A DNA stretch of 61,732 nucleotides from a virus. Taxonomy: Duplodnaviria > Heunggongvirae > Uroviricota > Caudoviricetes. Each line of letters opens with the position of its first letter. Within the stretch, counting starts at the first letter, position 1. Made by a program: the position numbers and the translations under genes. The notes under the pieces were generated by a model. It was not told the DNA's origin and made no database searches. It saw only the letters and a program-made list of their open reading frames with translations. Positions 2,110 through 18,593 of this stretch are shown in pieces. The DNA lies in IMG/VR virus record IMGVR_UViG_2534682252_000039; one strand, 5' to 3'.

Positions 2110-3374
2110 CCAGAAAACCGTGGCGTGCGGGGAAGGATTTATCCACTGTTGTGGAGAATATGGAAATTGGCACCGGGCAGCGTGGTGACGGACGTCACGC
2201 ATTTGTGACCCGTGAGGAACTGGTTGGTCTTAAACTCGCCCGGCGTCGAACATCGGGTGGTGCCTCATATGCACTGAATCCGGGTATTGAGATTGACAGT
2301 ACTTTAATGACTGTTGATTTTCCCACAAAACCGCTGAATTTTAAGGCGACCGGTGGATTTGGCTCGGTTCTTCTTGAATGGGATATGCCTAATTATCGCG
2401 GACATTCACTGACTGAAATCTGGCGGGGTACGGAGGATGACCTTGCTGATGCAGTGCTGGTTGCCACGACGCCGGGGCAGGTTTACGGCGATCCGGTTGA
2501 CCCTGGCTGGTCGGGATTTTACTGGATACGTTTTGTTAACGCGGCAGGAGTGAAAGGTCCATGGAATGCTGAAAAAGGCACTCAGGCACAAACACAGATC
2601 GGCGTGAAGGCCATCATTGACCAGATCCGCGATGAGGCTGCAAAGTCGCCGGTTGTGTCCGAGCTGCGTAAAGAAATAAAAAACGCGCAGGGGCAGGCTG
2701 TAAAGGATGCTGCAATTAAGACAACCGAAGTTGTAGGGACTCTCAGGGAAGAAACGACAAGAACGATTGGTGGTATTGAAACCCGCATTAGCACACTGGA
2801 TTCGTCAACCAGTGAATCGCTTAATGAGGTCGACAAGCGCATCACTAAATTGGATAAAGAAGGCGGTGAAGCTTTTCTTGCAATGTGGTCAAAAAAAGCG
2901 GGAGTTGATGGTATCACTGCGGGGATCGGGATTGTCGCCGGAAAAGACAGTGAAGGCAGGCCTGTAAGTCAGGTTGCAATTTCTGCGTCGCAGTTGTTTG
3001 TCTTTGACCCGAATAATCCGGATAACACAGCCTATCCGTTTGCGGTATCAGGTGGCAAGGTAGTGATCCCGAAAGCGATGATTTATGACGCGGTGATTGA
3101 AACACTGGTGTCGCGGAAGGTTGTGGCGGATGAGGTAAAAGCCGGGGTAAGTATCACTTCGCCAGTTATCCGGAGTGCCGTTATTCAGAACGGAAACTTT
3201 CAGGTTGATTCTCAGGGTAACCTGAATATTGGAGGCCTTTTCAGTGTTACGTCACAAGGGCAACTGACAATTCGTTACTCTAATCAGAATGTAGGACTGG
3301 TGATCCGCAATGATAAAATTGAGGTTTATGACCAGAATGGACGACTGGCTGTTCGCATAGGCAGATTACGCTGA
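2106..3374 (+). CDS. Phage tail fibre / host-specificity-like protein, module 2
   Basis: Translationally coupled to upstream ORF; beta-rich C-terminus; sits where a J C-terminal domain or tail spike would be. Confidence 0.5.
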   Translation: MTRKPWRAGKDLSTVVENMEIGTGQRGDGRHAFVTREELVGLKLARRRTSGGASYALNPGIEIDSTLMTVDFPTKPLNFKATGGFGSVLLEWDMPNYRGHSLTEIWRGTEDDLADAVLVATTPGQVYGDPVDPGWSGFYWIRFVNAAGVKGPWNAEKGTQAQTQIGVKAIIDQIRDEAAKSPVVSELRKEIKNAQGQAVKDAAIKTTEVVGTLREETTRTIGGIETRISTLDSSTSESLNEVDKRITKLDKEGGEAFLAMWSKKAGVDGITAGIGIVAGKDSEGRPVSQVAISASQLFVFDPNNPDNTAYPFAVSGGKVVIPKAMIYDAVIETLVSRKVVADEVKAGVSITSPVIRSAVIQNGNFQVDSQGNLNIGGLFSVTSQGQLTIRYSNQNVGLVIRNDKIEVYDQNGRLAVRIGRLR

Positions 3375-5347: not shown

Positions 5348-5488
5348 ATGTCGCAAAAATCGCTTATCACCGTCACAATTTGCATGACGGTTATCTTCAC
5401 CATCTGGATGTTGCACGGTTCACTGTGTGAGTTCCGGCTGAATTTGTGGGGAGCGGAGTTTGCGGCGTTCTTACAGTGTAAGCAGTAG
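5348..5488 (+). CDS. Hok/Gef-family type I toxin-like small membrane protein (46 aa), absent from the ORF track
   Basis: Hand translation MSQKSLITVTICMTVIFTIWMLHGSLCEFRLNLWGAEFAAFLQCKQ; AAGGAG RBS; resembles HokA as remembered (TWMIRDSLCE...ELAAFLACK). Confidence 0.5.
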   Translation: MSQKSLITVTICMTVIFTIWMLHGSLCEFRLNLWGAEFAAFLQCKQ

Positions 5489-5544: not shown

Positions 5545-5946
5545 ATGGCACCCGTTTCAGGTGAGAGAATGAACGATAAAATTCTCTGGTATATGCAGCG
5601 TGTTGTGAGAAATTCCCGCAACCCTGAATTTATGAATGAAGTTAAAGACGCCTGCCTTAAAAAGCAGGCGTTTTGTTTTGAGGCACCTGATGGCTTTTTG
5701 GTGCTGCGTTCTGTGCTCAGTGCTGATGGTATCCCTTATGTTCTGGTGTTGCTGGGCGTGTGTACGGGGAGTAACAGCGTTGAGCGTTACCTGCCGGAGG
5801 TGAAGACATTAACCCATCTGGCTGGCGGACGCTGGGCTGAGTTCCATACGGCAAGGCGGGGATTTATCCGGCTGGGAAAACGACTGGGCTTTGAGCGAAT
5901 GCCGGATGATGAGGATGGCTTCATGGTGTTCAGGATAGCGGTCTGA
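5545..5946 (+). CDS. Hypothetical protein (start possibly internal at MNDKILWY)
   Basis: ORF track only. Confidence 0.35.
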   Translation: MAPVSGERMNDKILWYMQRVVRNSRNPEFMNEVKDACLKKQAFCFEAPDGFLVLRSVLSADGIPYVLVLLGVCTGSNSVERYLPEVKTLTHLAGGRWAEFHTARRGFIRLGKRLGFERMPDDEDGFMVFRIAV

Positions 5947-5998
5947 CTGCTACAGTTTTCATCATTGTGTTTAAACCAACATTGTAATTCACATTCTG

Positions 5999-6025
5999 AC
6001 CCTGCTCCGGCAGGGTTTTTTGTTA
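5999..6025 (+). terminator. Terminator-like hairpin immediately upstream of the giant-protein operon
   Basis: CCCTGCtccgGCAGGG followed by TTTTTTGTT. Confidence 0.5.
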
Positions 6026-6039
6026 TCCAGGGGGCCATT

Positions 6040-6696
6040 ATGGGTGGAAGTAAAGGCGGTGGTGATACCAAAGTAAAACCAACAGCAGCGCAAATAGCAC
6101 AGGAAGAAGTGGCCTGGAAAGGGTGGCAGGATTACAAAAATATCCTCCGCCCGGCTGAAGATAACTTCATGGAAAAGGTCGATGACCTGAACAGTGAGCA
6201 GCAGTACGACAATATTGCTGGCACCACAAATCTGGGGTATCAGAAACAGTTTGGCGAAGCACGGAAGGAGCTTGCGGGTAATCTTGCTCAGTCCGGCGTT
6301 GACCCATCCAGTGGTCGTTTTAATGCGGTAATGAATGCGAACCAGAGTGACCAGGTAACCGGGCAGATTGACACAACCACACGGGGGCAGGTATCGCAGG
6401 CAGATAAGTATGTTGCCGGGCTACAGGATGTTGCTGCTCTCGGTTCTGGTCAGAAGGCGGATGCGTTACAGAGTTTTAACTCTCTGGCAGACAGCAGTCT
6501 GGCAAAAGCTAAATCGGATGCACAGGCGGCGTTTACGAAACAGCAGGGGCGAGCCTCTCTTGTTGGCGCTGGTCTGGGTGCGGCAGGTGCATATGCGATG
6601 CATAAGGCTGGCGGTAGCGGAGGAAGTGGCGGTGCTAAAACACCTGGCACCGGCGCTAATGCCATTCAGCATCAGGCTCAGAACTGGAGACTGTAA
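6040..6696 (+). CDS. Operon gene 1: Gly/Ala-rich virion-associated-like protein
   Basis: ATG at 6040 after the hairpin (track start 5965 would span the terminator); C-terminal GAGLGAAGAYA...GGSGGSGG. Confidence 0.55.
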   Translation: MGGSKGGGDTKVKPTAAQIAQEEVAWKGWQDYKNILRPAEDNFMEKVDDLNSEQQYDNIAGTTNLGYQKQFGEARKELAGNLAQSGVDPSSGRFNAVMNANQSDQVTGQIDTTTRGQVSQADKYVAGLQDVAALGSGQKADALQSFNSLADSSLAKAKSDAQAAFTKQQGRASLVGAGLGAAGAYAMHKAGGSGGSGGAKTPGTGANAIQHQAQNWRL

Positions 6697-6698
6697 TT

Positions 6699-7145
6699 AT
6701 GGAGTATGGCAAATACGAAACTCTCGCAAGGGCTGGTTATTCAGGAGCAGACCGCCCACAGGGTGACTGGCAGACGTCAGCAGCGCTGACACGCCAACAA
6801 TACGACGACTGGCGAACCAGATATTTGCCCCGCGTGGCAAGGCTGGCTGACCTTGGGGAGAACAACAGTCTGATGAATGCACAGCTTGCACGGGTGGGAG
6901 GCCTTGCCACTTCCAGTCTCCGTACAGCGCAGATGGCGCAGGATAACCAGATGGCGAGATACGGGGTAAACCGCCCGGATAATCCCGACAGTAATACGCT
7001 GGGGTTACGTAATGCCCTGGCAATTGCTGGCGCGAAAAATGGTATCCGTGAAGCCGAACAGGATCGCCAGATGAATATTCTGACGGGGGCTTCTGCACCG
7101 GCAAGACAGAAACTGAGTGTTGGCGGCCAACTGGTGGCAGCGTAA
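6699..7145 (+). CDS. Operon gene 2: hypothetical protein
   Basis: Tightly packed, same strand. Confidence 0.5.
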   Translation: MEYGKYETLARAGYSGADRPQGDWQTSAALTRQQYDDWRTRYLPRVARLADLGENNSLMNAQLARVGGLATSSLRTAQMAQDNQMARYGVNRPDNPDSNTLGLRNALAIAGAKNGIREAEQDRQMNILTGASAPARQKLSVGGQLVAA

Positions 7146-7154
7146 GGGGGCAAT

Positions 7155-7406
7155 ATGGGATACGGTTTACTGGATATTGCAAATCAGTCGCGGCGTGAGG
7201 CATTACAGGGAATAAGTGACGCAGACAGACGACGTGAAGAAATTGAGGCTGCGAACAAACAGATGGCGGCGCAACAGAAAGCGCAGAACAAGCAGAATAT
7301 CGGTACGGGCATTGGTACGGGGGCGGCTATTGGCGCATCCGTTGGTGGTCCTGTTGGTGCTGTTGCTGGAGCAGTAATTGGCGGCATTGCTGGTTCTTTG
7401 TTTTAA
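7155..7406 (+). CDS. Operon gene 3: small membrane protein with C-terminal glycine zipper
   Basis: GTGIGTGAAIGASVGGPVGAVAGAVIGGIAGSLF. Confidence 0.55.
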   Translation: MGYGLLDIANQSRREALQGISDADRRREEIEAANKQMAAQQKAQNKQNIGTGIGTGAAIGASVGGPVGAVAGAVIGGIAGSLF

Positions 7407-7416
7407 GGAGTGGTGA

Positions 7417-8682
7417 ATGAGCGGATTTGCACAGGGGTTACTTGCCGGATTCAGCACCGTTGACCAGGCAATGACCCGTCGTAAGGAGCTTGGTCTGCGT
7501 GAAGCACAGCTTGCCCGGCAACAGAAAAATAACGAGCGCGATTTTGAGTTTGCGCAGTCTCAGTTTGAACATAATAAAAACGTTGATCAGCGGAACTTTG
7601 ATTACAGAGCCAAAGTTGACGACCGTAATTATGCACTGAAGGAGAGGGAGTTTAACGCTAACCAGAATTACCGGAATGCGTCACTGGGTATGGAGCAGCA
7701 GCGACTCCAGTTGCAGAAATACAACCAGCGACGGCTTGAGTATAACGATATGATTGCCCATAGCCAGCCACTAATGGAAGCGCTTGGAAAAGCAATTGAG
7801 GCTGGCGATCAGGAGGCTGCAACGCGTCTGTTCGGGCAGCTGCCAAAGGGACATCCATTAATTCTTATGTCAAACGAAGGCTATGCAGCGAAAGCGGGTC
7901 AGGCCGTGATCAACCTGCAAAAAATCTTTGGTGATAAGCCGGACATGGCGATCGATTCGCTGAATACCCCGGAAAATCTCGATGTGCTTTCCGGCGTGTT
8001 TGCCCCGGAACTACAACAGCGTATTGGCATGCCTGATTCAACCGGGGACAAAACGATAAAAGAGGCCAGGATTGGCAGTATCGTACCAGCGCAGCAGGAA
8101 GGGTACGTACTTATTGGCCTTGATCTCACATACAGCGATGGCTCCACCGCGCATAAACCTGTAACAGAATACGGCAGTGCGCACCCTGATGATCAAACCG
8201 TGCTGGCGATACCCGTTGATAAGGCTATCGCTCAGGTCAGGGATCGCAGCAAATTTGCAGAGATATCGAAAAATTATGGTTATTTTATGCCGAAGCAGCA
8301 GGGACTTTCTCTGAAAGAGCTTCAGAAGGGGGCCAGCAACGTAGCGGCGGACGCGATCAAGAATGGCGGTAATGCTCAGGCTGCGGTGGATGAATATTAT
8401 GCTGCGACTGGTTCACAACCGCATCAACAGAAAATTCAGCAACAAAAACTTCAGCAACAGGTTATCAACTGGGCGGGAGATGATCCTGATAAGCTGTCAT
8501 TTGCCAGAAATGTAGCGGCCCGTCAGCCTGAAATGCTGGAACCTCAGAATCAGAAATTGCTGGAGAACGGGTATGCGAATTTTCTCCGTATTCAAAAGGC
8601 CAGGGGGGAACAGGCCAGAGATGAAAGTGCTTCATCTGCATCTCAGTTTATCCGTGGACTGAAACAGAATTACGCCCAGTAA
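7417..8682 (+). CDS. Operon gene 4: coiled-coil, Q/N-rich protein
   Basis: ORF track; N-terminal hydrophobic GLLAGF then long charged helices. Confidence 0.55.
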   Translation: MSGFAQGLLAGFSTVDQAMTRRKELGLREAQLARQQKNNERDFEFAQSQFEHNKNVDQRNFDYRAKVDDRNYALKEREFNANQNYRNASLGMEQQRLQLQKYNQRRLEYNDMIAHSQPLMEALGKAIEAGDQEAATRLFGQLPKGHPLILMSNEGYAAKAGQAVINLQKIFGDKPDMAIDSLNTPENLDVLSGVFAPELQQRIGMPDSTGDKTIKEARIGSIVPAQQEGYVLIGLDLTYSDGSTAHKPVTEYGSAHPDDQTVLAIPVDKAIAQVRDRSKFAEISKNYGYFMPKQQGLSLKELQKGASNVAADAIKNGGNAQAAVDEYYAATGSQPHQQKIQQQKLQQQVINWAGDDPDKLSFARNVAARQPEMLEPQNQKLLENGYANFLRIQKARGEQARDESASSASQFIRGLKQNYAQ

Positions 8683-8715
8683 TTCACGATATTCCATTAA
8701 TACCATTTCCTGATG

Positions 8716-8740
8716 CCCGGCCATTGTGCCGGGTTTTTTT
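8716..8740 (+). terminator. Intra-operon hairpin with T7 run (possible attenuator) between gene 4 and the giant gene
   Basis: CCCGGCcattgtGCCGGG + TTTTTTT; overlaps the first in-frame ATG at 8713. Confidence 0.5.
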
Positions 8741-8751
8741 ATGGAGTCTGT

Positions 8752-11700
8752 ATGGCCTATTCAGAGGAACAGCGTCCTGAGGCGCAACTCGGTAACCAGA
8801 ATCGTAACAGCCTGAACATTCAGCAACCCGGCGAAACTGACAGCTATGAAGCATTTTTCTCTGATCCGAATCGCTGGAAGGATAACAGTACGTCGTTCAG
8901 CCTGGGCGATGTATTGCCAACAATGGGTAAAGGTTTCGCCCAGTCCGTCCGGGGAACAGGGGAAATGGCCCGTGGACTCGGTGATGCGATGATTCAGAGC
9001 CCGGTAAAAACAGGGGCGCGTATTTTAAATGAGTTCAGCCGTATGGGGCTGCCGGGTGTCGCAACTGTGCAGGATATTTTTGCCGGTGGCAGCAGGGGGG
9101 CTGATGAGGTCATCGATACCCTGCCTGATGGCAAAAACGCGGTTACTGATACTGTCGGTAAAGGTCTGAAGGCAACCGGTAAGGCTGTCAGTGATGGTGC
9201 CAAAGCCACTGATGAATGGCTGACCGGTAAGATGTCGCCGGGTGCAGTTCGTGCGCTGAATACGCCGATGACCGAAGGCTATAATGATTCTGCGGTCTGG
9301 GTGGCGAAGGGTGTAAACCTGATTGGTGCGCTTGTACCTGATATGGTTGCTGGCGGTGTGGCTAGAAAGGTGGGTGATGTCACACTGCGAAAAATGCTGA
9401 CCGCCGGGCTGGAGAAAAAATACATCGCGGCAGGGATGCAGCCGGAAAGAGCCACGGCACTGGCAGCAGAAGCTGTCGATAAAAAAATGCCGGATTTATT
9501 CCAGGCGGGCCTGATCACCCATTCCACTGTAAGTGCACAGGGGCAGAGTGCAATGGCGGCAGCAGATGCTGTTCTTAATGCTGATTACTCTGAGCTGGCG
9601 CAGTCACCGAAATTTCAGCAGACGTTTTTGTCCATTGACGCCGACCCGCAGCACGCACAGCTTACTGATCGCCAGAAAATGGATCTGGCAAAAGAGCGTG
9701 TTGCCGATGAGGTGCGCGCGCAGCTGGCAACCGATCCTGAATTGCTGGCTGTGAATGCCATGGCGGCAAAACTGGGTGACGCACAACTGTTTAATCTGGT
9801 GACACGAGGCACAGCGAAGACCGTTAAAAGCGGCATTGTCAGAAATGCCACGGAACAGGGGGCGATTAATGCGGCGCAGGGCGGCTATTCACGCTATCAG
9901 GAAAACACGGCATTGCGTGAGACCGCCGGAATGGGTGTGTCACCGTGGGAGGGCGTGGCTGACGCAACGATCGAAGGTGCAGCCTTTGGTGCTGCGATGG
10001 GGGCTCCATTCGGTGCGGTTGCCGGATATCGTGGCAGACGTCAGGCCGCAGAAGAAACCGCCATGCGTGATGCTGAAACCGTGCAGCAGGACGACGCAGC
10101 CCCGCAACCAGAATCTGTTGATCCGGTGGCGCAGCAGCGTGAATCCATGCAGGGCATGAATCGCGAGCAGCTTCTGGAGCAGTATGCTGATGCGGATATG
10201 GCAACAGAGGGTGACGCATCCGCAGCTCATCGCCGGGAAGCTGCCAGCCAGTTGTTGAATGAACTGGACGAACAGACGAAGCGACAGGCTGTGATGAATG
10301 AGCTGAAGGCGAAGCCGCGTTCTGAACTGCTTGAGGAATACCGCAGACTCAGCCAGAAAGAGGGGCGCACCGAGACTGAAGAACAACAGTTTCAGGCAAT
10401 ACGAGAAGTCATTCGCCCACAACAGGAAGTGACGCCGGAAGCACAGTCACAGCCTGAAAATGCGGAGGATGGTAACGGGAGCATTTACCCGACGGTGCGG
10501 TTCCGGGACCCGAATGAAGTCCGCATTGAAATTAACGGGAATGGTGCGTCCAGACCAGCGGAACGCATTGAGAAGGTGCGCCCGGACAACCGTTATTTCA
10601 CGGATGAGAAAAGCGCCATGGGGAGTGATGTTTTCCGTAATGCCGCCGCCACCGGCCTGAAACCGTCCGTAGTGAAGAAAGGCGAGAATCAGTATGCCGT
10701 TGAAATGGATAATCCTGCGTTCTCTGAAGATGTGGCAACGGAAACCATTAACACCCTGGCTGACGGAGAGCGTATTGCTGATGCTGACCCGATGGAGCAG
10801 CCCGCGTTCATGCGTGACCCGCGATTCCGTGGTTTCACGGGGGATGATACGGAGGTACAGGCCCGCCTTGCCCGTGGCAACGCGCCGACGGCAGAGGAGC
10901 TTGTACGTTCACAGATGGCTGAAGGTGATGCCGGTCCGACAGCACAGGAGTTAACTGAGCGTCCACGCCTGCCCGCTCCCGGCGATATTCATCCCGGACA
11001 GGGATATCCGTTACCGGGAGAAGTGGCGCGTACGCCGGATGAAAATCAGGCCGGACGTGGTGGTCGTTTTACCACAACCGGTGAGGTTAAGGGCCAGAGT
11101 TTCCAGAAAGGACAAGCTCCGGCACCGGAAAACGCCGCTGGTCGCCAGGGGGAAACACTCGAGGGTGACATGGTTCGTCGTGGTCTGCCGTCACCGGATG
11201 CGCAGAACGCGACAGCACCGGTACGTGAAGGGCTACCGGCTCCTGACATTGCGCGTAATGTTCGTATGCCTCAGCCTGAATCACTTCCCCGCACTGTACG
11301 GGACTCACTGCCTGAGCTTGCACAGCAGGCAGAAGTACGCCGACAGGCCGGAGGAAATCGTGACATCCCGCAGCCTGAGACAATCGCACCTGAATCTGAA
11401 ACAACTGTCTCTACTGACAGGGAAGCTACCGTGCGCGGAGGTGAAGTCAGGGGCAAAAAAATTGAAGACTTTGGTGAAGAAATTAAGGGCGCGGCAAAAC
11501 ACCGTTATGCACAGCTTGCTGAAACACTGGGTAAAACGCTGGAAGACAGGGATTATGCCACGCAGCCGCTGAGCAAACTGTTCCCGAAACCGGACTACGC
11601 AAAACTGGCGAACGAAGGTGCTGATGCTGATACCCTGGCAATGATAGCGCTGTATCGTAGCGATATTCCGGCGAAGACGAAACACAATACGGCAGGCTGG

Positions 11701-14700
11701 GGGGAGAGCATAAAAAAAGTACGACACAGTGTATCGGAAATGCTGAACGGAACGGTCAGCGCGAAACGCCTCGCAGAATGGATGGAAGGCAGAATGCCCT
11801 CCCGTTACGCGGATACCTGGCAACTGTTACGCACTCTGCCACCCTCACAGATGGACAGGGCTTCTGCTTATCGGGTGGTATCGGGTGTGTATCAGGCGGC
11901 AGGAGGGAAGCGTTACGATCCGCCACAGAAACTTTATTCACTGCGCAATAAGGACAATAAGGGGAGTAACCTCTTTTTCTCGGAAAGCAGGGATGAATTA
12001 CTGGCAAAGGCGAAAGTCTGGTTTGCAGAGCAGGAGGAAAAATCACAGGCGAAAGGTGATGAAAAAACAGCACCGTCACCGGATGACAAAATCCGCTTTG
12101 ACGTTTACCGGAATACCCGCAGTGGCGATATTTTTATCGCTTACGGTAAAAACAAAATGCGGGTGAGAGGTGGCTTTAAGTCAGCCAGTGATGCGCGTAA
12201 GTACATTGATTCACATCGTGATGAGCTTGTTCGTCATGTGAAGGAGATGCGGGAGATTTCGCGTGAGGAGCAGCGCAACGCCACCAACCGCGACCGTACC
12301 GGACCAGAACGCCGCAAGGGGAATGTTTCACCGGAGCAGTTCAGTGATGCGTTTGGTTTCCGTGGTGTGCAGTTTGGTAACTACGTGGAAGGTCCGCGTC
12401 GTCAGGCTGATTTGAACCGGGCTTATGACTCGCTGCATGACCTTGCGGAAGTACTGAATGTACCGACAAAAGCGCTTTCCCTGAACGGTCGTCTTGGCCT
12501 GGCATTTGGTGCCCGTGGTAAGGGTAAGGCGGCGGCACACTATGAGTCAGGTGAGGTGGCAATCAACCTGACAAAAGGTAACGGACCGGGTGCGCTGGCG
12601 CACGAATGGTTCCATTCTCTGGATAATTATTTTGGTCGTTATGACGTTTCCAATGACGGGAAAATTACGTCAGGTGGCGACTTTATGACGGAAGCACAGC
12701 GTGTCAGGCGCATATTTAAAGACGGCAGGTATGTTGATGCTGAATATCCGGTACGTCAGGAGGTTTACGACGCTTTTAAAGGTGTGATTCAGGCCATTAA
12801 AAACAGTGACATGCCGCGTCGTTCAGCGCTTCTCGATGAGGTGCGCTCAAAACCGTACTGGTCAACGGATGTTGAAATGGCGGCACGTGCCTTTGAGCGT
12901 TATGTTCAGGATAAGGCGCGTATGGCTGGCGTGGAGAATGATTATCTGGTCAATATCCGTAAGGCACCTGAGCACAACACAGATAACACCTACGCTTATC
13001 CGACGAATGCGGAACTGGATGGCGGTATTCGTGAGGCATTCGATCACCTGTTCCGCACCCTGAAAACCCGTGAGACGGACAAGGGCGTTGCGTTTTATTC
13101 CCGTAAGGGCGTTACCCGCACACCTGAAGGTAATCTCATTTCGGATGTTAACCGTAGTGCGGAAGCCAAAGGCAGCCCGGTCCCGCAGGTTGAAGCGGTT
13201 GCCCGTGGCGTGATGAGCGGCATTAAGGACAGTGACCTGAAGGTCCGTGTGGTGAAGTCACAGAAAGAGGCTGAAGCGCTGGCGGGTGAATTGTTCGATG
13301 GTTACGGCAGGGTGCACGCATTCTATCGTCCGGATAAACGAGAAATTGTCCTGGTGGCGGATAACATCCCTGACGGGCGGACCGTTCGCGAGAAGCTGCG
13401 TCACGAGATCATTCACCATGCCATGGAGCATGTTGTCACACCAGCGGAATATCAGACGATTATCAAAACCGTGCTGAAAACCCGCGACAGTGATAACGTC
13501 ACCATCCGTGAAGCCTGGCGTAAGGTTGATGCTTCCTATGGTAAGGAATCACCGGAAGTACAGGCGGGTGAATTTCTGGCACATATGGCGGAGAAACAGC
13601 CGAATAAATTCGTGGCGGCATGGGAGCGTGTTGTTGCCCTGGTCAAAGGGGTACTGCGTCGTACGGGGTTACTGAAGCCGACGGAACTGAACGATATCAG
13701 ACTTGTTCGCGAGACCATCCGTACGTTAGGCCAGCGTGTGCGGGAAGGTTACACGCCGCGTGAGGATGGCGCGGGCGCATCGTTTCAGTACTCCCGTAGT
13801 GGTAAACGTGATCCGTTCAAAGTGCCGGAAGGTGAGGGCGAGCGTTATCGTGATGACCTTGCCAGAATGATGAAATCTCTGCGCACCACAGATTTAACGG
13901 TAAACATCGGGCGTACGCCGCCGGTATTGCGTCACCTTGGTGCACCGGATTTGCCGCTGGTTATTTCCCGCGATACTGTGCGGAAGGCCACCAATGGTGT
14001 GAAACATGTGGTGCCGATGGATGTTATCGAGAGACTACCGGAACTGATGCACGATCCGGATGCAATTTACCGCTCAGCGACAGAAAGAAATGCGGTTGTG
14101 ATGCTGCTTGATGCCGTGGATAAAAATGGTGATCCGGTGGTGTCAGCGGTACACATGAAGGCTGTCCGGTCGCGTCTGGAAATCAACAAGGTAGCTTCTG
14201 TTTACGGTACAGAAAATGGAAAAAAACTGAAGAGTATGGAAATGACCGGGTTAACGTTGTACCGGAGAGAAAAATTAAGCCGCGATAACCTTCTGCACAG
14301 AGGGCTCCAATTGCCCAAAGGGGAACATTCTTATCGCGGCTCTGCGGATAAAATACTCTATCCTGAAGATATTCGCAAGGGGCCGTATTACTCCCGTACC
14401 AGCAGTCTGACACCGGAAGAGACAATTGCATCGCGTTTTGTGCGCCAGATGCAGGATAAATTCCAGGTGCTGAAAGCTGTTCAGGAGAATATCCGTAAAA
14501 CTGGCGGCAAAGTGGACGACAGTAACAACGCTTATATGGCGGAAGAACTCTTCCACGGGAAGGCGGAAAACGACCTGAACGTGATGAAGGAGCGCTACGT
14601 TCAGCCACTGGCTAAATTACTGGCGGACTACAAAATTGCGCAGGCCGATCTGGATGAGTACCTCTACGCCCGTCACGCGCCGGAACGTAACGCGCATATC

Positions 14701-17133
14701 GCGAAAATCAACCCGAAAATGCCGGACGGCGGTTCGGGGATGACCAACGCGGAAGCGGCGGAAATCATGCAGCGTGTACGTAACAGTGGCAAACAGGCAC
14801 AGTATGACCGTCTGGCAGGGATTATTGACGATATGCTGGCCCGTCGCCGTGAGCTTATCCGTGAGGCCGGACTTGAAGAGAACGGTGTGGTGGATGCCTG
14901 GCAGAACGCCTACCGTTACTACGTTCCCCTGAAAGGTCAGGATGTTGACGGTGTGGTGTCACTGCCCCGTACAGGTAAGGGCTTCACCATCGGCGGACGT
15001 GAAAGCAGGCAGGCCATGGGGCGTGCATCCCGGGCACAGTCTCCGTCCACTCAGGCGATACAGGACCTGAGCGAATCGCTGATCCGCCATCGCAAAAACG
15101 AAGTGGGTAACGCCTTCCTGAAACTGGTGCAGGATAATCCCGACAAGGATTACTGGCAGGTATTCACCGATGACAGACCGGATACCATGCGGACGATTGC
15201 AGAGCGCAAGGACCAGGAAACTGGTGAAACCATTCGCGAAGTTGTCGAACGCCCTGTACCGATGGCAATGATGGCAGACCGGTACTTCACCACCAAAAAG
15301 AACGGCAAAACGTACTACATCAAACTCCATGATCCGCGCCTGATGCGTGCGATGAAGAGTATGGGACCGGAAACCAGCAATGCCTTTGTTCGTACGCTGG
15401 GGAAAGTTAACCGCTTCCTGGCAACGGTGAACACGTCGTATAACCCGGAATTCCTGGTCAGTAACTTCATCCGTGACGTGCAGACGGCGGTGATGAACCT
15501 GAAGGCGGAGCAGGGAAGGAGCGACGGTAAACTGAAAGGGCTGGATAACTTATCCGCCCTGGCTGTGGTGAAAGACAGCCGTTCTGCCATGTCAGCCGTA
15601 TACGCCAGTCTGCGTGGTAAAACCCTCACGGGAAAAGGTGCACAGTGGCAGAAGGTGTGGAAAGAGTTTGTTGAGGACGGAGGGAAAACCGGCTGGTTTA
15701 ACATGGGTGACCTTGAAGGCCAGCAGAAGGAAATGGATCGCCTTGTCTCACTGGCGAAGGGGGGATGGAAAGGCCAGAGTATCGGTGCATGGAATTCGTT
15801 CCTTAACCTTGTCGAGGATGCCAACGGTGCGGTTGAAAACGCTCTGCGTCTTTCTGCCTATAAGCACGCCCGTGATGCCGGTTTGTCACGCCAGCAGGCG
15901 GCGTCTCTTGCCAAAAACATGACGGTGAACTTTAACCGTCGTGGTGAGCAGGGGGCGCTGATGAATTCGCTGTACATGTTCGCCAACGCCAGCATTCAGG
16001 GAACGGCAAATCTGGTGAGAACGCTCGGACATCTTAATGGTGAGGGACCTTTACTGGAGCGCCTTCGCTGGAAGAATCTGAATGTTCCGCAGAAAATCGC
16101 GCTTGCCGCTGTGGGAGCAGGTTATCTGCTTGGCTCGCTTAACCGCAGCGTGGCGGGTGAGGATGATGACGGGGTTAACTGGTATGACAAGGTGCCGTCT
16201 CATGTGAAAGAGCGTAACCTCGTCATTATGAAATCGGTGTTCGGGGGCAAGGCCGGAGAGTACTGGAGTATTCCTCTGCCTTACGGGTACAACGTTTTCT
16301 TCCTGCTCGGGCATACTGCTGAAGGTGTGGCGGCGGGTGACCTGACGGCGTCCCGTGCTGCCGGTAATGTTGTTGGTGGTGTGCTTGGTGCATTCAGCCC
16401 GATTGGCAGTGAGACGTCGGAAACACTGTCCGGGGCATTGCTGAAAAATGCAGCGCCGACCATTCTGCGTCCGTTTGCGAACCTTGCCATGAATGAAAAC
16501 TTCATGGGGGCGCAGATTTACCAGGAGAACATGCCGTTTGGTACACCAAAACCTGACAGCCAGCTGGGAAGACGTTCAACGCCAGAAGCGTACAAGGCGT
16601 TTGCATCCTGGCTGAATGCGTTCTCAGGTGGCAGCCAGTACCGTCCCGGCGCGGTGGATATCACACCGGAATCGCTGAAATTCTGGATTGACTATATCTC
16701 CGGAGGGACAGGGCGCTTCATTTCCAAAACCACGGATGCGGCGGTGAAATCGCTGAATGGTATTGATATACCGGAACAGCAGGTGCCCTTCCTGGGGAAA
16801 ATTTCGGGGGAGGTGATGCCGTATGCAGACCAGCAGAAGATGTACGACCGGATGACAGAGATTGCGCAGTATCACGCAGAGCTGAAGAGTCTGACCGGTG
16901 CAGAAAGAACGGCGTTCATTGACGAGAACAACGGAAAATTGTCGATGAACGGGCTTATGCAGGATACCCGGAAGAGACTGAAGGATTTGCGTAAACAGCG
17001 TGATGCCATTTACGCCGACAGTACTCTCAGTCTGGCGCAACAGTCGGCGATGGTGAAATCGGTAGAGCGGGATATGAAAATTGCCGTGGATCGGTTTAAC
17101 CGCGAGTACAACAAAAAAGTGGGAGTGGATTAA
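8752..17133 (+). CDS. Giant multidomain protein (~2,790 aa) with zincin-like HEWFH motif; candidate virion-packaged polyvalent protein
   Basis: Uninterrupted ORF 8713..17133; preferred start ATG 8752 after GGAG; HEWFH at ~12601-12615; RHEIIHHAMEH at ~13399-13431; glycine-zipper segment near 9975-10030. Confidence 0.8.
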   Translation: MAYSEEQRPEAQLGNQNRNSLNIQQPGETDSYEAFFSDPNRWKDNSTSFSLGDVLPTMGKGFAQSVRGTGEMARGLGDAMIQSPVKTGARILNEFSRMGLPGVATVQDIFAGGSRGADEVIDTLPDGKNAVTDTVGKGLKATGKAVSDGAKATDEWLTGKMSPGAVRALNTPMTEGYNDSAVWVAKGVNLIGALVPDMVAGGVARKVGDVTLRKMLTAGLEKKYIAAGMQPERATALAAEAVDKKMPDLFQAGLITHSTVSAQGQSAMAAADAVLNADYSELAQSPKFQQTFLSIDADPQHAQLTDRQKMDLAKERVADEVRAQLATDPELLAVNAMAAKLGDAQLFNLVTRGTAKTVKSGIVRNATEQGAINAAQGGYSRYQENTALRETAGMGVSPWEGVADATIEGAAFGAAMGAPFGAVAGYRGRRQAAEETAMRDAETVQQDDAAPQPESVDPVAQQRESMQGMNREQLLEQYADADMATEGDASAAHRREAASQLLNELDEQTKRQAVMNELKAKPRSELLEEYRRLSQKEGRTETEEQQFQAIREVIRPQQEVTPEAQSQPENAEDGNGSIYPTVRFRDPNEVRIEINGNGASRPAERIEKVRPDNRYFTDEKSAMGSDVFRNAAATGLKPSVVKKGENQYAVEMDNPAFSEDVATETINTLADGERIADADPMEQPAFMRDPRFRGFTGDDTEVQARLARGNAPTAEELVRSQMAEGDAGPTAQELTERPRLPAPGDIHPGQGYPLPGEVARTPDENQAGRGGRFTTTGEVKGQSFQKGQAPAPENAAGRQGETLEGDMVRRGLPSPDAQNATAPVREGLPAPDIARNVRMPQPESLPRTVRDSLPELAQQAEVRRQAGGNRDIPQPETIAPESETTVSTDREATVRGGEVRGKKIEDFGEEIKGAAKHRYAQLAETLGKTLEDRDYATQPLSKLFPKPDYAKLANEGADADTLAMIALYRSDIPAKTKHNTAGWGESIKKVRHSVSEMLNGTVSAKRLAEWMEGRMPSRYADTWQLLRTLPPSQMDRASAYRVVSGVYQAAGGKRYDPPQKLYSLRNKDNKGSNLFFSESRDELLAKAKVWFAEQEEKSQAKGDEKTAPSPDDKIRFDVYRNTRSGDIFIAYGKNKMRVRGGFKSASDARKYIDSHRDELVRHVKEMREISREEQRNATNRDRTGPERRKGNVSPEQFSDAFGFRGVQFGNYVEGPRRQADLNRAYDSLHDLAEVLNVPTKALSLNGRLGLAFGARGKGKAAAHYESGEVAINLTKGNGPGALAHEWFHSLDNYFGRYDVSNDGKITSGGDFMTEAQRVRRIFKDGRYVDAEYPVRQEVYDAFKGVIQAIKNSDMPRRSALLDEVRSKPYWSTDVEMAARAFERYVQDKARMAGVENDYLVNIRKAPEHNTDNTYAYPTNAELDGGIREAFDHLFRTLKTRETDKGVAFYSRKGVTRTPEGNLISDVNRSAEAKGSPVPQVEAVARGVMSGIKDSDLKVRVVKSQKEAEALAGELFDGYGRVHAFYRPDKREIVLVADNIPDGRTVREKLRHEIIHHAMEHVVTPAEYQTIIKTVLKTRDSDNVTIREAWRKVDASYGKESPEVQAGEFLAHMAEKQPNKFVAAWERVVALVKGVLRRTGLLKPTELNDIRLVRETIRTLGQRVREGYTPREDGAGASFQYSRSGKRDPFKVPEGEGERYRDDLARMMKSLRTTDLTVNIGRTPPVLRHLGAPDLPLVISRDTVRKATNGVKHVVPMDVIERLPELMHDPDAIYRSATERNAVVMLLDAVDKNGDPVVSAVHMKAVRSRLEINKVASVYGTENGKKLKSMEMTGLTLYRREKLSRDNLLHRGLQLPKGEHSYRGSADKILYPEDIRKGPYYSRTSSLTPEETIASRFVRQMQDKFQVLKAVQENIRKTGGKVDDSNNAYMAEELFHGKAENDLNVMKERYVQPLAKLLADYKIAQADLDEYLYARHAPERNAHIAKINPKMPDGGSGMTNAEAAEIMQRVRNSGKQAQYDRLAGIIDDMLARRRELIREAGLEENGVVDAWQNAYRYYVPLKGQDVDGVVSLPRTGKGFTIGGRESRQAMGRASRAQSPSTQAIQDLSESLIRHRKNEVGNAFLKLVQDNPDKDYWQVFTDDRPDTMRTIAERKDQETGETIREVVERPVPMAMMADRYFTTKKNGKTYYIKLHDPRLMRAMKSMGPETSNAFVRTLGKVNRFLATVNTSYNPEFLVSNFIRDVQTAVMNLKAEQGRSDGKLKGLDNLSALAVVKDSRSAMSAVYASLRGKTLTGKGAQWQKVWKEFVEDGGKTGWFNMGDLEGQQKEMDRLVSLAKGGWKGQSIGAWNSFLNLVEDANGAVENALRLSAYKHARDAGLSRQQAASLAKNMTVNFNRRGEQGALMNSLYMFANASIQGTANLVRTLGHLNGEGPLLERLRWKNLNVPQKIALAAVGAGYLLGSLNRSVAGEDDDGVNWYDKVPSHVKERNLVIMKSVFGGKAGEYWSIPLPYGYNVFFLLGHTAEGVAAGDLTASRAAGNVVGGVLGAFSPIGSETSETLSGALLKNAAPTILRPFANLAMNENFMGAQIYQENMPFGTPKPDSQLGRRSTPEAYKAFASWLNAFSGGSQYRPGAVDITPESLKFWIDYISGGTGRFISKTTDAAVKSLNGIDIPEQQVPFLGKISGEVMPYADQQKMYDRMTEIAQYHAELKSLTGAERTAFIDENNGKLSMNGLMQDTRKRLKDLRKQRDAIYADSTLSLAQQSAMVKSVERDMKIAVDRFNREYNKKVGVD

Positions 17134-17140
17134 CAGAAAT

Positions 17141-17165
17141 GGCCCCGTACGGAAGTGCGGGGCTG
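17141..17165 (+). terminator. Hairpin after the giant gene (no strong T-run)
   Basis: CCCCGtacggaagtgCGGGG. Confidence 0.3.
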
Positions 17166-17255
17166 ATTAAGAAATAAACACTCATTGACCTGTAATAACC
17201 GGAGCTATTAACATATAGTCAGAAGAGCATTTCATGTGATACAGAGAGCCGATTT

Positions 17256-18147: not shown

Positions 18148-18303
18148 TTACTTCTCAGATTCGTAGTCTACGAAGACAGCGACCTCCGTCTGACCGGTTC
18201 GGATTCGCACCTCGCAGAGGTCTTTCCTCGTTACCAGTGCCGTCACTATGACGGTTAAACAGATGACGATCAGGGCGATTAACATCGCCTTTTGCTGCTT
18301 CAT
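18148..18303 (-). CDS. hok: Hok/Gef-family type I toxin (HokD/RelF-like), with overlapping mok-like frame upstream
   Basis: MKQQKAMLIALIVICLTVIVTALVTRKDLCEVRIRTGQTEVAVF...; track ORF extends to 18360 in the mok-like frame. Confidence 0.85.
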   Translation of the reverse strand: MKQQKAMLIALIVICLTVIVTALVTRKDLCEVRIRTGQTEVAVFVDYESEK

Positions 18304-18593
18304 AGCCTGCTTCTCCTTGCCTTTCGGCACGTAAGAGGCTAACCTACATGTGTTCAGCATGGATTGAGCCTCAGATTAATGTTAAGCGTCTTGCCGGACG
18401 CGTAATGTTAACTGGGGCTTTTCTCTATCTGCCGTTGGTGTTCATGCCCGAGGCAGATAGCCTCAAGCACCCGCAGCAATTCTACTTAACTCTCCTTTTC
18501 CCGCAAACCGTTTTTATCTCCAGCGACAAATCGAATACACAACCAGCACCACCGCCATTACTGTTCCTACATTTGCGAATGCTTCAGGCCAGG

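What the first reader, a model, noticed from the sequence alone, without database searches (positions are those of the whole stretch)
6040..17133. Five-gene operon ending in a 2,806-aa giant protein with an HExxH motif
Directly after the tail genes and lom, five co-directional, tightly packed genes encode a Gly/Ala-rich protein, a small protein, an 83-aa glycine-zipper membrane protein, a 421-aa coiled-coil protein, and an uninterrupted ~8.4 kb ORF. The giant protein carries HEWFH (~12601-12615), a second His-rich motif RHEIIHHAMEH (~13399-13431) and a glycine-zipper segment (~9975-10030). This looks like a podovirus-style ejection module fused to a polyvalent enzymatic protein injected with the DNA, but I could not assign any domain with certainty. 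Hairpins with T-runs sit upstream of the operon and between gene 4 and the giant gene.
Basis: partly seen in the sequence, partly recalled or inferred. Interest (0 to 1): 0.7.

Follow-up and report, generated by a model that had tools for sequence, protein, structure and literature searches.

The report
Stx phage internal ejection-protein operon
This is the already-described internal-virion protein operon of the Shiga-toxin phage Sp5/VT2-Sakai; its 2,793-aa "polyvalent" protein is packed in the head and is most likely injected with the DNA, so the feature is real and biologically interesting but not new.

Summary
The window is 100% identical to prophage Sp5 / phage VT2-Sakai of E. coli O157:H7, and the genes are ECs1238-ECs1242.

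The giant gene most likely starts at ATG 8752 (2,793 aa), not 8713.

Published work already covers the core. Deleting ECs1241 or ECs1242 abolishes infectivity but not DNA packaging. The phi24B homologue is abundant in virions yet invisible in the cryo-EM map. Pfam files the protein among phage "large polyvalent proteins".

- HEWFH is the invariant active site of a gluzincin-type peptidase whose Glu helix lies inside Pfam "LPD1".
- A second HExxH domain plus a ~900-aa helical C-terminal module form the conserved core.
- That module sits at the C-terminus of thousands of giant phage proteins and has no solved structural relative.
- MuF_C has a RelE/BrnT-like RNase fold; it is not a peptidase.
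- The five proteins contain no cysteine in 3,663 aa, a trait shared by distant homologues and previously noted for N4-type ejection proteins.

Novelty: already known.

The parts
5998..6022 (+). Intrinsic-terminator-like hairpin plus T-run, just upstream of gene 1. Presumably read through by Q-modified RNA polymerase in the late transcript (inference).
   Evidence: dG -15 kcal/mol, z -4.5.
6040..6696 (+). ECs1238 (Sp5 ORF76): 218 aa, Gly/Ala-rich with a Gly-zipper-like C-terminus, no Cys. Virion protein; its phi24B homologue is gp51.
   Evidence: PHROG 611 full length, with a weak match to a 'virion structural protein' family. Deletion strongly reduces infectivity (the ORF76 = ECs1238 assignment is inferred from the numbering offset). 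Peptides found in phi24B virions. Homologue in Vibrio phage D62 gene 16, E 7e-15. 0 Cys.
6699..7145 (+). ECs1239: 148 aa, no Cys. Virion protein; its phi24B homologue is gp50.
   Evidence: PHROG 596. Peptides in phi24B virions. Weak syntenic homologue D62 gene 17, E 1e-4. 0 Cys.
7155..7406 (+). ECs1240: 83 aa. Charged N-terminal helix followed by a C-terminal glycine zipper, so a candidate membrane-inserting peptide. Annotated 'bacteriocin'.
   Evidence: Gly-zipper_YMGG E 9e-6, below the Pfam cutoff. PHROG 594. A few peptides in phi24B virions. D62 gene 18, 42% identity, E 4e-8. 0 Cys.
7417..8682 (+). ECs1241 (Sp5 ORF79): 421 aa, helical and Gln/Asn-rich, no Cys. Essential for infectivity and relatively abundant in virions; its phi24B homologue is gp48.
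   Evidence: Deletion gives no plaques or lysogens while DNA is packaged, and the defect is complementable. In phi24B: 1,634 PSMs in total and 179 in the batch digest, against 101 for the portal. D62 gene 20, E 5e-11. No Pfam or PDB match. 0 Cys.
8715..8740 (+). Terminator-like hairpin plus T7 between gene 4 and the giant gene. It overlaps the first in-frame ATG at 8713.
8752..17133 (+). ECs1242 (Sp5 ORF80; VT2-Sakai orf71): giant Cys-free polyvalent internal virion protein, 2,793 aa from the probable start codon.
   Evidence: PHROG 616 full length. Pfam LPD5, LPD1, MuF_C and LPD38. Essential for infectivity. The phi24B homologue gp47 is in virions, with peptides from its N-terminal, middle and C-terminal parts.
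9232..10032 (+). Conserved N-terminal region of the giant protein, ending in the glycine zipper (ORF aa 421-440).
   Evidence: 28% identity to the N-terminus of Vibrio phage D62 gene 21, E 6e-26. PHROG 37568. Weak Gly-zipper Pfam hits.
10090..11832 (+). Charged, Pro/Gln/Glu-rich low-complexity stretch (ORF aa ~460-1040) with no family match. Probably an extended linker (inference).
   Evidence: Composition. No Pfam hit even at E 5.
11902..12351 (+). LPD5 domain (ORF aa 1064-1213), mixed alpha/beta. Function unknown; flagged as possibly enzymatic by Iyer et al. 2017.
   Evidence: Pfam PF18799, E 6.5e-45. pLDDT mostly >90. Paper text.
12352..13071 (+). Zincin metallopeptidase 1 (ORF aa ~1214-1453). 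Key residues: His1276, HEWFH 1297-1301, Asp1304, and the Glu helix E1388..E1395, which Pfam calls LPD1.
13168..13743 (+). Second HExxH domain (ORF aa ~1486-1677; HEIIH at nt 13402-13416). Three strands followed by the HExxH helix, like a small zincin. This domain is part of the conserved core.
   Evidence: 32% identity to D62 gene 21 aa 1949-2138, which carries HEILAH. Ralstonia phage Heva gp07 carries HEMFH about 130 aa before its C-terminal module. HExxH or HExxxH recurs at this position in many homologues. Secondary structure from the model. Minigluzincin, Wss1 and SprT hits; the output does not say which HExxH domain those hits aligned to.
13999..14268 (+). MuF_C / PBECR domain (ORF aa 1763-1852). 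It has a RelE/BrnT/CdiA-CT-like (BECR) RNase fold and is not a peptidase.
14413..17124 (+). Conserved, mostly helical C-terminal module of ~900 aa. It includes Pfam LPD38 (nt 16177-16794).
   Evidence: AF2 pLDDT 81.6, pTM 0.78. No meaningful PDB fold match. 68 BFVD matches, TM 0.6-0.85 for most of the top 40, all annotated ones being phage proteins and many split chunks of very large ones. Profile search: 19,316 cluster representatives at E<=1e-3, and the match ends within 40 residues of the C-terminus in all but one of the 150 listed. Present in Vibrio, Ralstonia, Burkholderia and Bacillus phages and in a Methanosarcina virus.

Best explanation
ECs1238-ECs1242 form the internal-virion (ejection or pilot) protein module of the 933W/Sp5-type short-tailed Stx phages.

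**Shown by published work**
- Two of the products, ECs1241 and ECs1242, are required for infection but not for head assembly or DNA packaging.
- Homologues of all five products are found in purified phi24B virions.
- The giant protein gp47 is not part of the ordered capsid or tail density.

**Inferred mechanism**
- The proteins are packed inside the T=9 head.
- After the needle is released they leave through the tail ahead of or with the DNA. They cross the oxidising periplasm largely unfolded, which would explain the complete absence of cysteine.
- They then build or extend a conduit across the envelope. The glycine-zipper segments of ECs1238, ECs1240 and the giant protein's N-terminus would insert into membranes.
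- The conserved N-terminal region and the ~900-aa helical C-terminal module of ECs1242 are the constant, structural parts.
- The middle of ECs1242 is exchangeable cargo: LPD5, an invariant gluzincin-type peptidase (HEWFH plus the Glu helix of 'LPD1') and a BECR-fold RNase-like domain. A second small HExxH domain in this middle stretch is, by contrast, conserved in distant relatives and belongs to the core.
- The cargo is delivered into the cell at the moment of entry. The peptidases most plausibly cut the polyprotein at the flexible linkers (ORF aa ~1464-1484, 1681-1698, 1832-1900). The freed domains would act on host proteins or RNA, for defence evasion or takeover.
For: **Identity.** 100% DNA identity to Sp5 / VT2-Sakai.

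**Genetics.** Deletion of ORF79 (ECs1241) or ORF80 (ECs1242) gives no plaques and no lysogens, with normal DNase-protected DNA and normal heads; both are complementable. Deletion of ORF76 (ECs1238, by numbering offset) strongly reduces infectivity.

**Virion content (phi24B).**
- gp47 (2,811-aa ORF) has the second-highest PSM count after the major capsid protein and is absent from the map.
- Its peptides come from the N-terminal, middle and C-terminal regions.
- The homologues of genes 1-4 are also detected.

**Cysteine.**
- 0 Cys in 3,663 aa here, against 1.16% in the six upstream genes.
- 0 Cys in Vibrio phage D62 genes 16, 17, 18, 20 and 21, and in Ralstonia phage Heva gp06 and gp07 (4,545 aa), while their neighbouring genes have Cys.
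- 49 Cys in 365,112 aa across 132 diverse giant proteins carrying the C-terminal module; 106 of the 132 have none.
- The same trait is used as an ejection-protein signature for N4 gp50 and DEV gp71-73.

**Synteny.** The whole gene set is collinear and pairwise homologous with Vibrio phage D62 genes 16-21.

**Related phages.** Bcep22-like phage JC1 has a 4,515-aa 'DarB-like' protein and two preceding proteins that are virion-associated by mass spectrometry.

**Domains.**
- Pfam polyvalent-protein domains.
- Invariant HEWFH..D and E..E residues.
- Zincin and RelE/BrnT fold hits.

**Constant ends, variable middle.**

**Precedent.** In DEV the 3,398-aa vRNAP is a giant enzyme that doubles as an ejection protein.
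Against: - No experiment shows that any of these proteins leaves the capsid or enters the cell.
- In the Sp5 study the ORF79 and ORF80 mutant particles did not bind tail-fibre antibody, and the authors concluded a role in tail assembly. P22-type ejection-protein mutants, as I recall, make normal-looking tailed particles.
- No sequence or fold similarity to any solved ejection protein. No detectable similarity between the C-terminal module and the C-terminal 1,400 aa of N4 gp50 (hhalign probability 0.09).
- No classical hydrophobic transmembrane helix: no 19-mer reaches Kyte-Doolittle 1.4.
- No peptidoglycan hydrolase domain was found.
- Peptidase and RNase activities are unproven. The MuF_C conservation rests only on relatives of at least 32% identity.
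- Cysteine avoidance is correlative.
Confidence: 0.7

Rival explanations
1. Tail-assembly or tail-structural proteins. ECs1241 and ECs1242 would be needed to build or attach the short tail, as concluded in the original Sp5 knock-out study, and would not be injected.
For: The ORF79 and ORF80 mutants package DNA, but their particles bind no anti-tail-fibre (ORF67) antibody.
Against: - The phi24B reconstruction accounts for portal, adaptors, nozzle, needle and fibres with other gene products. gp47 is absent from the map despite its abundance.
- Complete cysteine avoidance, polyvalent effector domains and an exchangeable middle are not expected of a tail building block.
- Loss of tails could be a secondary effect of a missing internal core (inference).
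Confidence: 0.12
2. Purely an anti-defence cargo protein in the manner of P1 DarB. It would be packaged and injected only to protect the incoming DNA or disable host immunity, with no role in forming the entry channel.
For: - Relatives are annotated 'DarB-like antirestriction'.
- The protein carries polyvalent-protein domains.
- The framework of Iyer et al. 2017.
Against: - Essential for infection of E. coli K-12 MG1655 in the published assay. As I recall, P1 dar mutants are viable on non-restricting hosts.
- No helicase or methyltransferase domain was found here. The resemblance to 'DarB-like' families is confined to the C-terminal module.
- The best-conserved parts are the non-enzymatic N- and C-terminal modules.
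Confidence: 0.1
3. A capsid-internal core or DNA-organising protein that stays in the head. It would act as an inner body or packaging aid that positions the DNA end at the portal and is never ejected.
For: - Abundant, inside the head, and invisible after symmetric averaging.
- The preprint notes internal tail and portal contents that constrain tail tilt in full particles but not in emptied ones.
Against: - DNA packaging is normal without it.
- Cysteine avoidance is hard to explain for a protein that never meets the periplasm.
- Effector-type domains serve no purpose inside a capsid.
Confidence: 0.08

Closest known systems
phi24B gp47-gp51 and Sp5 ORF76-ORF80 (933W-like Stx phages; Sepvirinae, Traversvirus)
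   Same: It is the same locus. The window is 100% identical to Sp5 / VT2-Sakai. The knock-out phenotypes come from this prophage. The phi24B homologues are virion proteins.
   Different: Nothing differs in sequence. The literature has not assigned the two HExxH domains. The preprint calls MuF-C a metallopeptidase and sets aside a 'transcription regulation factor' and a bacteriocin homologue as contaminants. Its supplement labels gp48 'Transcription factor?', and the 86-aa protein appears to be the bacteriocin homologue; that mapping is my inference.
Phage-type large polyvalent proteins (Iyer, Burroughs, Anand, de Souza, Aravind 2017; Pfam LPD families)
   Same: - LPD5, LPD1, MuF_C (PBECR) and LPD38 are all above the Pfam gathering score.
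- The zincin MPTase has a His at the strand end and an Asp three residues after HExxH, as described for a phage clade.
- The gene sits among late virion genes.
   Different: Here the protein is genetically essential for infection. It also carries a large constant C-terminal module, of which Pfam models only about 200 aa as LPD38.
'DarB-like' giant virion proteins of Bcep22/BcepIL02/JC1 and Ralstonia GP4/Heva-type podoviruses
   Same: - The ~900-aa C-terminal module is shared at 26-28% identity.
- They are virion-associated by mass spectrometry.
- They are preceded by virion proteins of about 200 and 500 aa.
- Heva gp06 and gp07 also have zero cysteine.
- The head and tail genes are related to those of 933W / phi24B.
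   Different: Those proteins are 4,500+ aa and carry other cargo. The Sp5 protein showed no helicase or methylase domain in the scans run here.
N4 gp50 / DEV gp71 virion RNA polymerase with gp51/52 (DEV gp72/73): the Schitoviridae ejection operon
   Same: - A giant (~3,400-3,500 aa), cysteine-free protein packaged in the virion and encoded in one operon with small ejection proteins.
- It contains a zinc-binding or HExxH region.
- It is invisible in reconstructions of the virion.
   Different: There is no RNA polymerase domain here. There is no detectable sequence similarity between the C-terminal modules. Sp5 has four accessory genes where N4/DEV has two.
T7 gp14/gp15/gp16 and P22 gp7/gp20/gp16 ejection proteins
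   Same: A functional analogy only: internal virion proteins needed for infection but not for packaging.
   Different: No sequence or fold similarity was found. There is no lytic transglycosylase domain like that of T7 gp16 (my recollection of T7).

Membership tests
Phage-type large polyvalent protein (Iyer et al. 2017) | Several unrelated effector-type domains in a single polypeptide | tested here: met
   Pfam LPD5 (153 bits), LPD1 (84), MuF_C (64) and LPD38 (164), all above the cutoff of about 27. Two HExxH domains in addition.
Phage-type large polyvalent protein (Iyer et al. 2017) | Zincin-like MPTase: HExxH helix plus a downstream Glu helix on a three-stranded sheet | tested here: met
Phage-type large polyvalent protein (Iyer et al. 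2017) | Encoded among late/virion genes and carried in the virion | tested here: met
   Gene order in the window follows the tail genes. Virion presence of the phi24B homologue comes from the literature.
Phage-type large polyvalent protein (Iyer et al. 2017) | Delivered into the host cell with the DNA | not testable with these tools
   Needs infection experiments. Only indirect support is available, from cysteine avoidance.
Podovirus ejection (internal virion) proteins | Required for infectivity but not for head assembly or DNA packaging | tested here: met
   Not computed here. Published knock-outs in this same prophage (PMC5155283).
Podovirus ejection (internal virion) proteins | Present in virions but outside the ordered capsid and tail density | tested here: met
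   From the phi24B preprint and its supplement. Shown for the homologue, not for Sp5 itself.
Podovirus ejection (internal virion) proteins | Cysteine avoidance, as noted for N4 gp50 and DEV gp71-73 | tested here: met
   0 of 3,663 aa here against 19 of 1,637 in the upstream genes. Conserved in the D62 and Heva homologues and in 132 diverse relatives at 0.013%.
Podovirus ejection (internal virion) proteins | Homology in sequence or fold to T7, P22 or N4/DEV ejection proteins | tested here: not met
Podovirus ejection (internal virion) proteins | Released on infection and forming a trans-envelope channel | not testable with these tools
   Requires cryo-ET, fractionation or lipid-bilayer experiments.
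P1 DarB-type antirestriction protein | Helicase and N6-adenine methyltransferase domains (domain content of P1 DarB recalled from memory) | tested here: not met
   No helicase or methyltransferase Pfam hit even at E 5 on segments. The match to the 'DarB-like' PHROG 10089 is confined to aa 2364-2694, the LPD38 region.
AAA+ ATPase (COG1483, suggested in the 2016 Sp5 paper) | Walker A P-loop and an AAA+ domain match | tested here: not met
   No [AG]xxxxGK[ST] motif anywhere in the protein. No AAA-type Pfam hit.
MuF / SPP1 gp7 head-morphogenesis protein | N-terminal MuF (portal-associated) domain | tested here: not met
   Only the C-terminal MuF_C (PBECR) domain matches. No hit to a MuF N-terminal family.
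Tail tape-measure protein | Tape-measure family match and a long-tailed phage context | tested here: not met
   No tape-measure Pfam hit for the giant protein. Only the 83-aa Gly-zipper protein weakly touches a tape-measure PHROG, E 7e-4. The phage is a podovirus.

The most novel reading that the evidence does not exclude
The ~900-aa helical C-terminal module is the anchor of a very large class of cysteine-free giant phage proteins. Pfam models only ~200 aa of it, as LPD38. A profile search found at least 14,000 protein clusters at E<=1e-10.

In this reading the module, together with the small Gly-zipper proteins, forms a trans-envelope entry device unrelated in fold to the T7, P22 or N4 ejection proteins. 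Variable effector cargo is threaded through it and then cut free by the built-in zincin peptidases. That would be a general, modular protein-injection platform of short-tailed and some other phages.
Probability: 0.3. Interest if true: 0.6.

Novelty: already known. Interest (0 to 1): 0.3.

Why it matters
Stx phages spread Shiga toxin genes among E. coli, and this operon takes up about 18% of the phage genome. It decides whether particles are infectious.

The giant protein is the least understood essential component of these phages. How a ~310-kDa polypeptide is stored in the head and passed through a short tail is an open question that the phi24B authors themselves raise.

The analysis sharpens that question into testable parts:
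- two candidate peptidase active sites;
- a BECR-fold domain;
- flexible linkers as candidate cleavage sites;
- constant ends as candidate conduit parts;
- a family-wide ban on cysteine.

It also shows that the C-terminal module is one of the more widespread phage protein modules with no solved structure.

None of this changes the classification. The locus, its essentiality, its virion location and its polyvalent nature are already published.

Tried and rejected
- **PDB sequence searches.** The whole giant protein, ECs1241 and ECs1238 returned nothing meaningful.
- **Relaxed Pfam scans.** Ten segments at E<=5 added only weak Gly-zipper hits. A Peptidase_M76 match at E 0.23 near HEIIH is too weak to use.
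- **Link to the N4 vRNAP C-terminal encapsidation region.** hhalign probability 0.09. Rejected at this sensitivity, which compared one sequence with a profile.
- **AAA+ ATPase idea from the 2016 paper.** No Walker A motif and no Pfam hit.
- **Homologue search with ECs1241.** It returned only near-identical E. coli proteins of unknown function and used the last search of that kind.
- **Per-gel-slice peptide mapping of phi24B gp47, to detect proteolytic processing.** The stored supplement gives peptide totals only. gp47 PSMs do smear from the top slice down to slices where ~60-80-kDa proteins run. That could reflect processing or storage degradation, so it is left open.
- **My recollection that 933W L0121 is the giant gene.** Wrong; L0121 is the tail fibre.
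- **Tandem repeats in the giant gene.** None of note.
- **Rfam.** Only the known sok RNA, downstream of the operon.

Full report
**1. What is in the sequence**

The window carries five co-directional ORFs at the stated place:
- 6040-6696: 218 aa from ATG 6040. The maximal ORF starts at TTG 5965.
- 6699-7145: 148 aa.
- 7155-7406: 83 aa.
- 7417-8682: 421 aa.
- 8713-17133: 2,806 aa.

The first three gaps are 2, 9 and 10 nt.

- HEWFH at 12601-12615.
- RHEIIHHAMEH at 13399-13431, which itself contains a second HExxH (HEIIH) at 13402-13416.
- A Gly-zipper stretch at about 9975-10030.

Two G+C-rich hairpins followed by T-runs are present:
- 5998-6017: dG -15 kcal/mol, z -4.5 against shuffles.
- 8715-8734: dG -13.6 kcal/mol, z -2.4.

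Two corrections are needed.

First, the giant gene most likely starts at ATG 8752, giving 2,793 aa.
- The ATG at 8713 sits inside the second hairpin.
- The 13 residues it would add hold the only two cysteines of the ORF.
- The full-length family profile PHROG 616 aligns from residue 14.
- GGAG lies 6 nt upstream of ATG 8752.
- The Sakai chromosome annotation starts there.

Second, the operon does not follow lom directly. ECs1237 (5545-5946) and an unannotated 46-aa Hok/Gef-family ORF (5348-5488) lie between them.

**2. Identity**

Nucleotides 6000-17200 are 100% identical to prophage Sp5 of E. coli O157:H7 Sakai and to phage VT2-Sakai (Sepvirinae, Traversvirus).
- 186 phage records and 427 of 5,426 complete E. 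coli genomes carry the region at 90% identity or more (one genome at 80-90%).
- The genes are ECs_1238 to ECs_1242, equivalent to VT2-Sakai orf67-orf71.

**3. What is already published**

*The Sp5 knock-out study (PMC5155283).*
- Deleting ORF79 (ECs1241) or ORF80 (ECs1242, 2,793 aa) abolishes plaque formation and lysogenisation.
- DNase-protected phage DNA stays at wild-type level and heads look normal.
- Both defects are complemented in trans.
- The ORF76 mutant infects very poorly. ORF76 equals ECs1238 by the constant numbering offset, which is my inference.
- The remaining genes of the operon were not among the essential set.
- The authors concluded 'tail formation', because the mutant particles did not bind anti-tail-fibre antibody. 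They also noted a COG1483 AAA+ hit.

*The polyvalent-protein study (PMC5512222).*
- It defined phage and plasmid 'polyvalent proteins', large proteins delivered with invading DNA that string together unrelated effector domains.
- A zincin peptidase (MPTase) is the commonest hub domain.
- MuF-C is a BECR-fold RNase-like domain (PBECR).
- LPD5 is flagged as possibly enzymatic.
- LPD38 is restricted to phage-type proteins.

*The April 2026 phi24B preprint (10.64898/2026.04.10.717836).*
- It reports a T=9 capsid and a tail resembling that of Ralstonia phage GP4.
- The homologue gp47 (2,811-aa ORF) is abundant in virions but absent from the map.
- The authors propose that gp47 is an encapsidated ejection protein.

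The preprint's proteome supplement lists these spectral counts, given as total / batch digest:

| phi24B protein | Homologue of | PSMs (total / batch) |
|---|---|---|
| gp47 | ECs1242 | 10,962 / 746 |
| gp48 (labelled 'Transcription factor?') | ECs1241 | 1,634 / 179 |
| 86-aa protein | ECs1240 | 13 / 6 |
| gp50 | ECs1239 | 129 / 83 |
| gp51 | ECs1238 | 523 / 82 |
| portal | - | 2,226 / 101 |

gp47 peptides come from its N-terminal, central and C-terminal parts.

So the products of all five genes are found in purified virions. The text sets aside a 'transcription regulation factor' and a bacteriocin homologue as contaminants; I take these to be gp48 and the 86-aa protein. Normalising batch counts by length against 12 portal copies gives tens of copies for several of them. 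This is my own rough arithmetic on spectral counts, not a measurement.

**4. New analysis of the giant protein**

Numbering below follows the 2,806-aa ORF.

*Pfam.* LPD5 (1064-1213), LPD1 (1374-1453), MuF_C (1763-1852) and LPD38 (2489-2694) are all far above their cutoffs. No Pfam model covers either HExxH motif, even in relaxed scans. No solved structure matches by sequence.

*First HExxH site.* In an alignment of 47 diverse homologues (28-77% identity), these positions stand out:
- H1297, E1298, W1299, H1301 and D1304 are invariant.
- H1276, in the motif AHYE, is nearly invariant.
- Y1382, E1388, A1391, R1392 and E1395 are invariant, and they lie inside 'LPD1'.

This matches the phage MPTase clade described in the 2017 paper, which has a His at the end of strand 2, an Asp three residues after HExxH, and a Glu on the following helix. 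It implies that Pfam LPD1 is the C-terminal helical part of that peptidase and not a separate domain (inference).

*AlphaFold model of aa 1040-1900 (mean pLDDT 79).*
- It shows compact domains separated by low-confidence linkers at aa 1464-1484, 1681-1698 and 1832-1879.
- The second group fits MuF_C as a BECR-fold domain. The preprint's phrase 'Muf-C metallopeptidase domain' therefore conflates two things.
- No M23/M15-type cell-wall peptidase appears in the top 60, so a peptidoglycan-cutting role for the HExxH domains is not supported by fold.

*Second HExxH site.* HEIIH at aa 1564 sits on a helix that follows three strands in the model. HExxH or HExxxH recurs at this position in many homologues.

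*No Walker A motif exists*, so the AAA+ suggestion is not supported.

**5. Constant and variable parts**

*Vibrio phage D62 has a collinear gene set*:

| D62 gene (aa) | Sp5 gene | blastp E-value |
|---|---|---|
| 15 (131) | ECs1237 | 3e-4 |
| 16 (201) | ECs1238 | 7e-15 |
| 17 (117) | ECs1239 | 1e-4 |
| 18 (77) | ECs1240 | 4e-8 |
| 20 (467) | ECs1241 | 5e-11 |
| 21 (3,066) | ECs1242 | 0 |

*The two giant proteins share three blocks* (this list uses numbering from ATG 8752):
- An N-terminal region, aa 161-408.
- The second HExxH domain, aa 1473-1664, at 32% identity. D62 has HEILAH there.
- The C-terminal ~900 aa, at 41% identity.

Ralstonia phage Heva gp07 (4,545 aa) keeps the C-terminal module and a single HEMFH about 130 aa before it. 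LPD5, peptidase 1 and MuF_C are therefore exchangeable cargo.

*The C-terminal module.*
- It folds confidently: pLDDT 81.6, pTM 0.78, mostly helical with one small sheet region.
- It has no meaningful relative among solved structures.
- It matches 68 BFVD models at E<=1e-3, with TM 0.6-0.85 over ~950 columns for most of the top 40. Many targets are split chunks of large phage proteins, and some are annotated with lytic transglycosylase, RelA/SpoT or type I methylase domains.
- A profile of the module finds 19,316 cluster representatives at E<=1e-3, 14,443 at E<=1e-10 and 7,456 at E<=1e-30, among 1.84 billion.
- In all but one of the 150 best hits the match ends within 40 residues of the protein's C-terminus. 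The 132 newly retrieved proteins are 837-5,181 aa, median 2,716.
- tblastn finds it in Vibrio, Ralstonia, Burkholderia (Bcep22/BcepIL02) and Bacillus phages and in a Methanosarcina virus.
- In the Bcep22-like phage JC1, the 4,515-aa 'DarB-like' protein and the two preceding proteins are virion-associated by mass spectrometry.

**6. Cysteine**

The DEV study (PMC11445570) shows that the N4-type vRNAP is a 3,398-aa ejection protein encoded with two smaller ejection proteins. It points out that all three avoid cysteine, and it attributes this to passage through the periplasm.

Results here:
- ECs1238-ECs1242 contain 0 Cys in 3,663 aa. The six upstream genes have 19 in 1,637 aa. The probability of zero at a 1% frequency is about 1e-16.
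- D62 genes 16, 17, 18, 20 and 21, and Heva gp06 and gp07, also have none, while their neighbouring genes do.
- Across 132 mutually diverse giant proteins carrying the C-terminal module there are 49 Cys in 365,112 aa (0.013%), and 106 proteins have none.
- Homologues selected only for the LPD5-peptidase cassette are less depleted, at 0.23%.

**7. Interpretation**

The best-supported reading is an internal-virion ejection module. Its largest member doubles as a carrier of effector domains.

| Status | Points |
|---|---|
| Shown by others | Essential for infection but not for packaging. Present in virions. Absent from the ordered density. |
| Shown here | Domain identities. Active-site conservation. 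The constant-ends, variable-middle architecture. Synteny with distant phages. The cysteine rule. |
| Inferred | Release through the tail. Unfolded periplasmic transit. Membrane insertion through the Gly-zippers. Self-cleavage at the linkers. Action of the freed domains on host targets. |

Evidence that does not fit this reading:
- The missing tail-fibre labelling on mutant particles.
- The absence of any similarity to solved ejection proteins.
- The absence of classical transmembrane helices.
- The absence of a cell-wall hydrolase domain.

**8. Novelty and score**

The locus is Sp5 itself. Its essentiality (2016), its family assignment (2017, Pfam) and its virion location with an ejection hypothesis (2026 preprint) are all published.

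I rate it 'already known', with interest 0.3.

Noticed in passing
window 5348-5488 (+): A 46-aa ORF (MSQKSLITVTICMTVIFTIWMLHGSLCEFRLNLWGAEFAAFLQCKQ) between lom and ECs1237 matches Pfam Hok/Gef at 33.2 bits (cutoff 22). It is not annotated in either NC_002695.2 or NC_000902.1. No Rfam sok RNA was found beside it at the gathering score. It may be a second, divergent type I toxin in the prophage late region.
   Followed up: partly
window 18148-18472 (-): A canonical hok/mok-type toxin gene (Pfam HOK_GEF, 79.8 bits) with its sok antisense RNA (Rfam RF01794, 113.5 bits), just downstream of the operon.
   Followed up: yes
L005 1918-4496 (E. coli O157:H7 M1300706002); also strains 6535WT and 6535NalR and phage PA36: An IS1203 (IS3-family) element is inserted inside the homologue of ECs1241 (gene 4), splitting it. 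This was checked in strain M1300706002 only; the other records show the same two-piece match. Because ECs1241 is essential for infectivity in Sp5, such Stx prophages should produce non-infectious particles while still making toxin.
   Followed up: partly
phi24B preprint supplement, homologues of window 7155-7406 and 7417-8682: The preprint sets aside a 'transcription regulation factor' and a bacteriocin homologue as contaminants. These appear to be gp48 (the homologue of the essential ECs1241, with more batch PSMs than the portal) and the 86-aa Gly-zipper protein. Genetics, synteny and cysteine avoidance suggest both are genuine internal virion proteins.
   Followed up: partly
window 2106-3374 (+), ECs1233: This 422-aa protein carries a tail-tip fibre domain and appears to be the counterpart of the phi24B needle gp56 (by position, not tested). 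It also has no cysteine, unlike its neighbours ECs1232, ECs1234 and ECs1235.
   Followed up: no
window 5545-5946 (+), ECs1237: This gene lies upstream of the first hairpin and has a weak syntenic homologue in Vibrio phage D62 (gene 15, E 3e-4). It contains 3 Cys and was not among the nine essential genes of the Sp5 knock-out study. It travels with the module but probably is not an ejected protein.
   Followed up: partly
MK170447.1 40102-42492 (Methanosarcina virus MetMV), hit H74: The C-terminal module is found at 28% identity over 88% of its length in an archaeal virus. That is unexpected for a device thought to cross a Gram-negative envelope.
   Followed up: no
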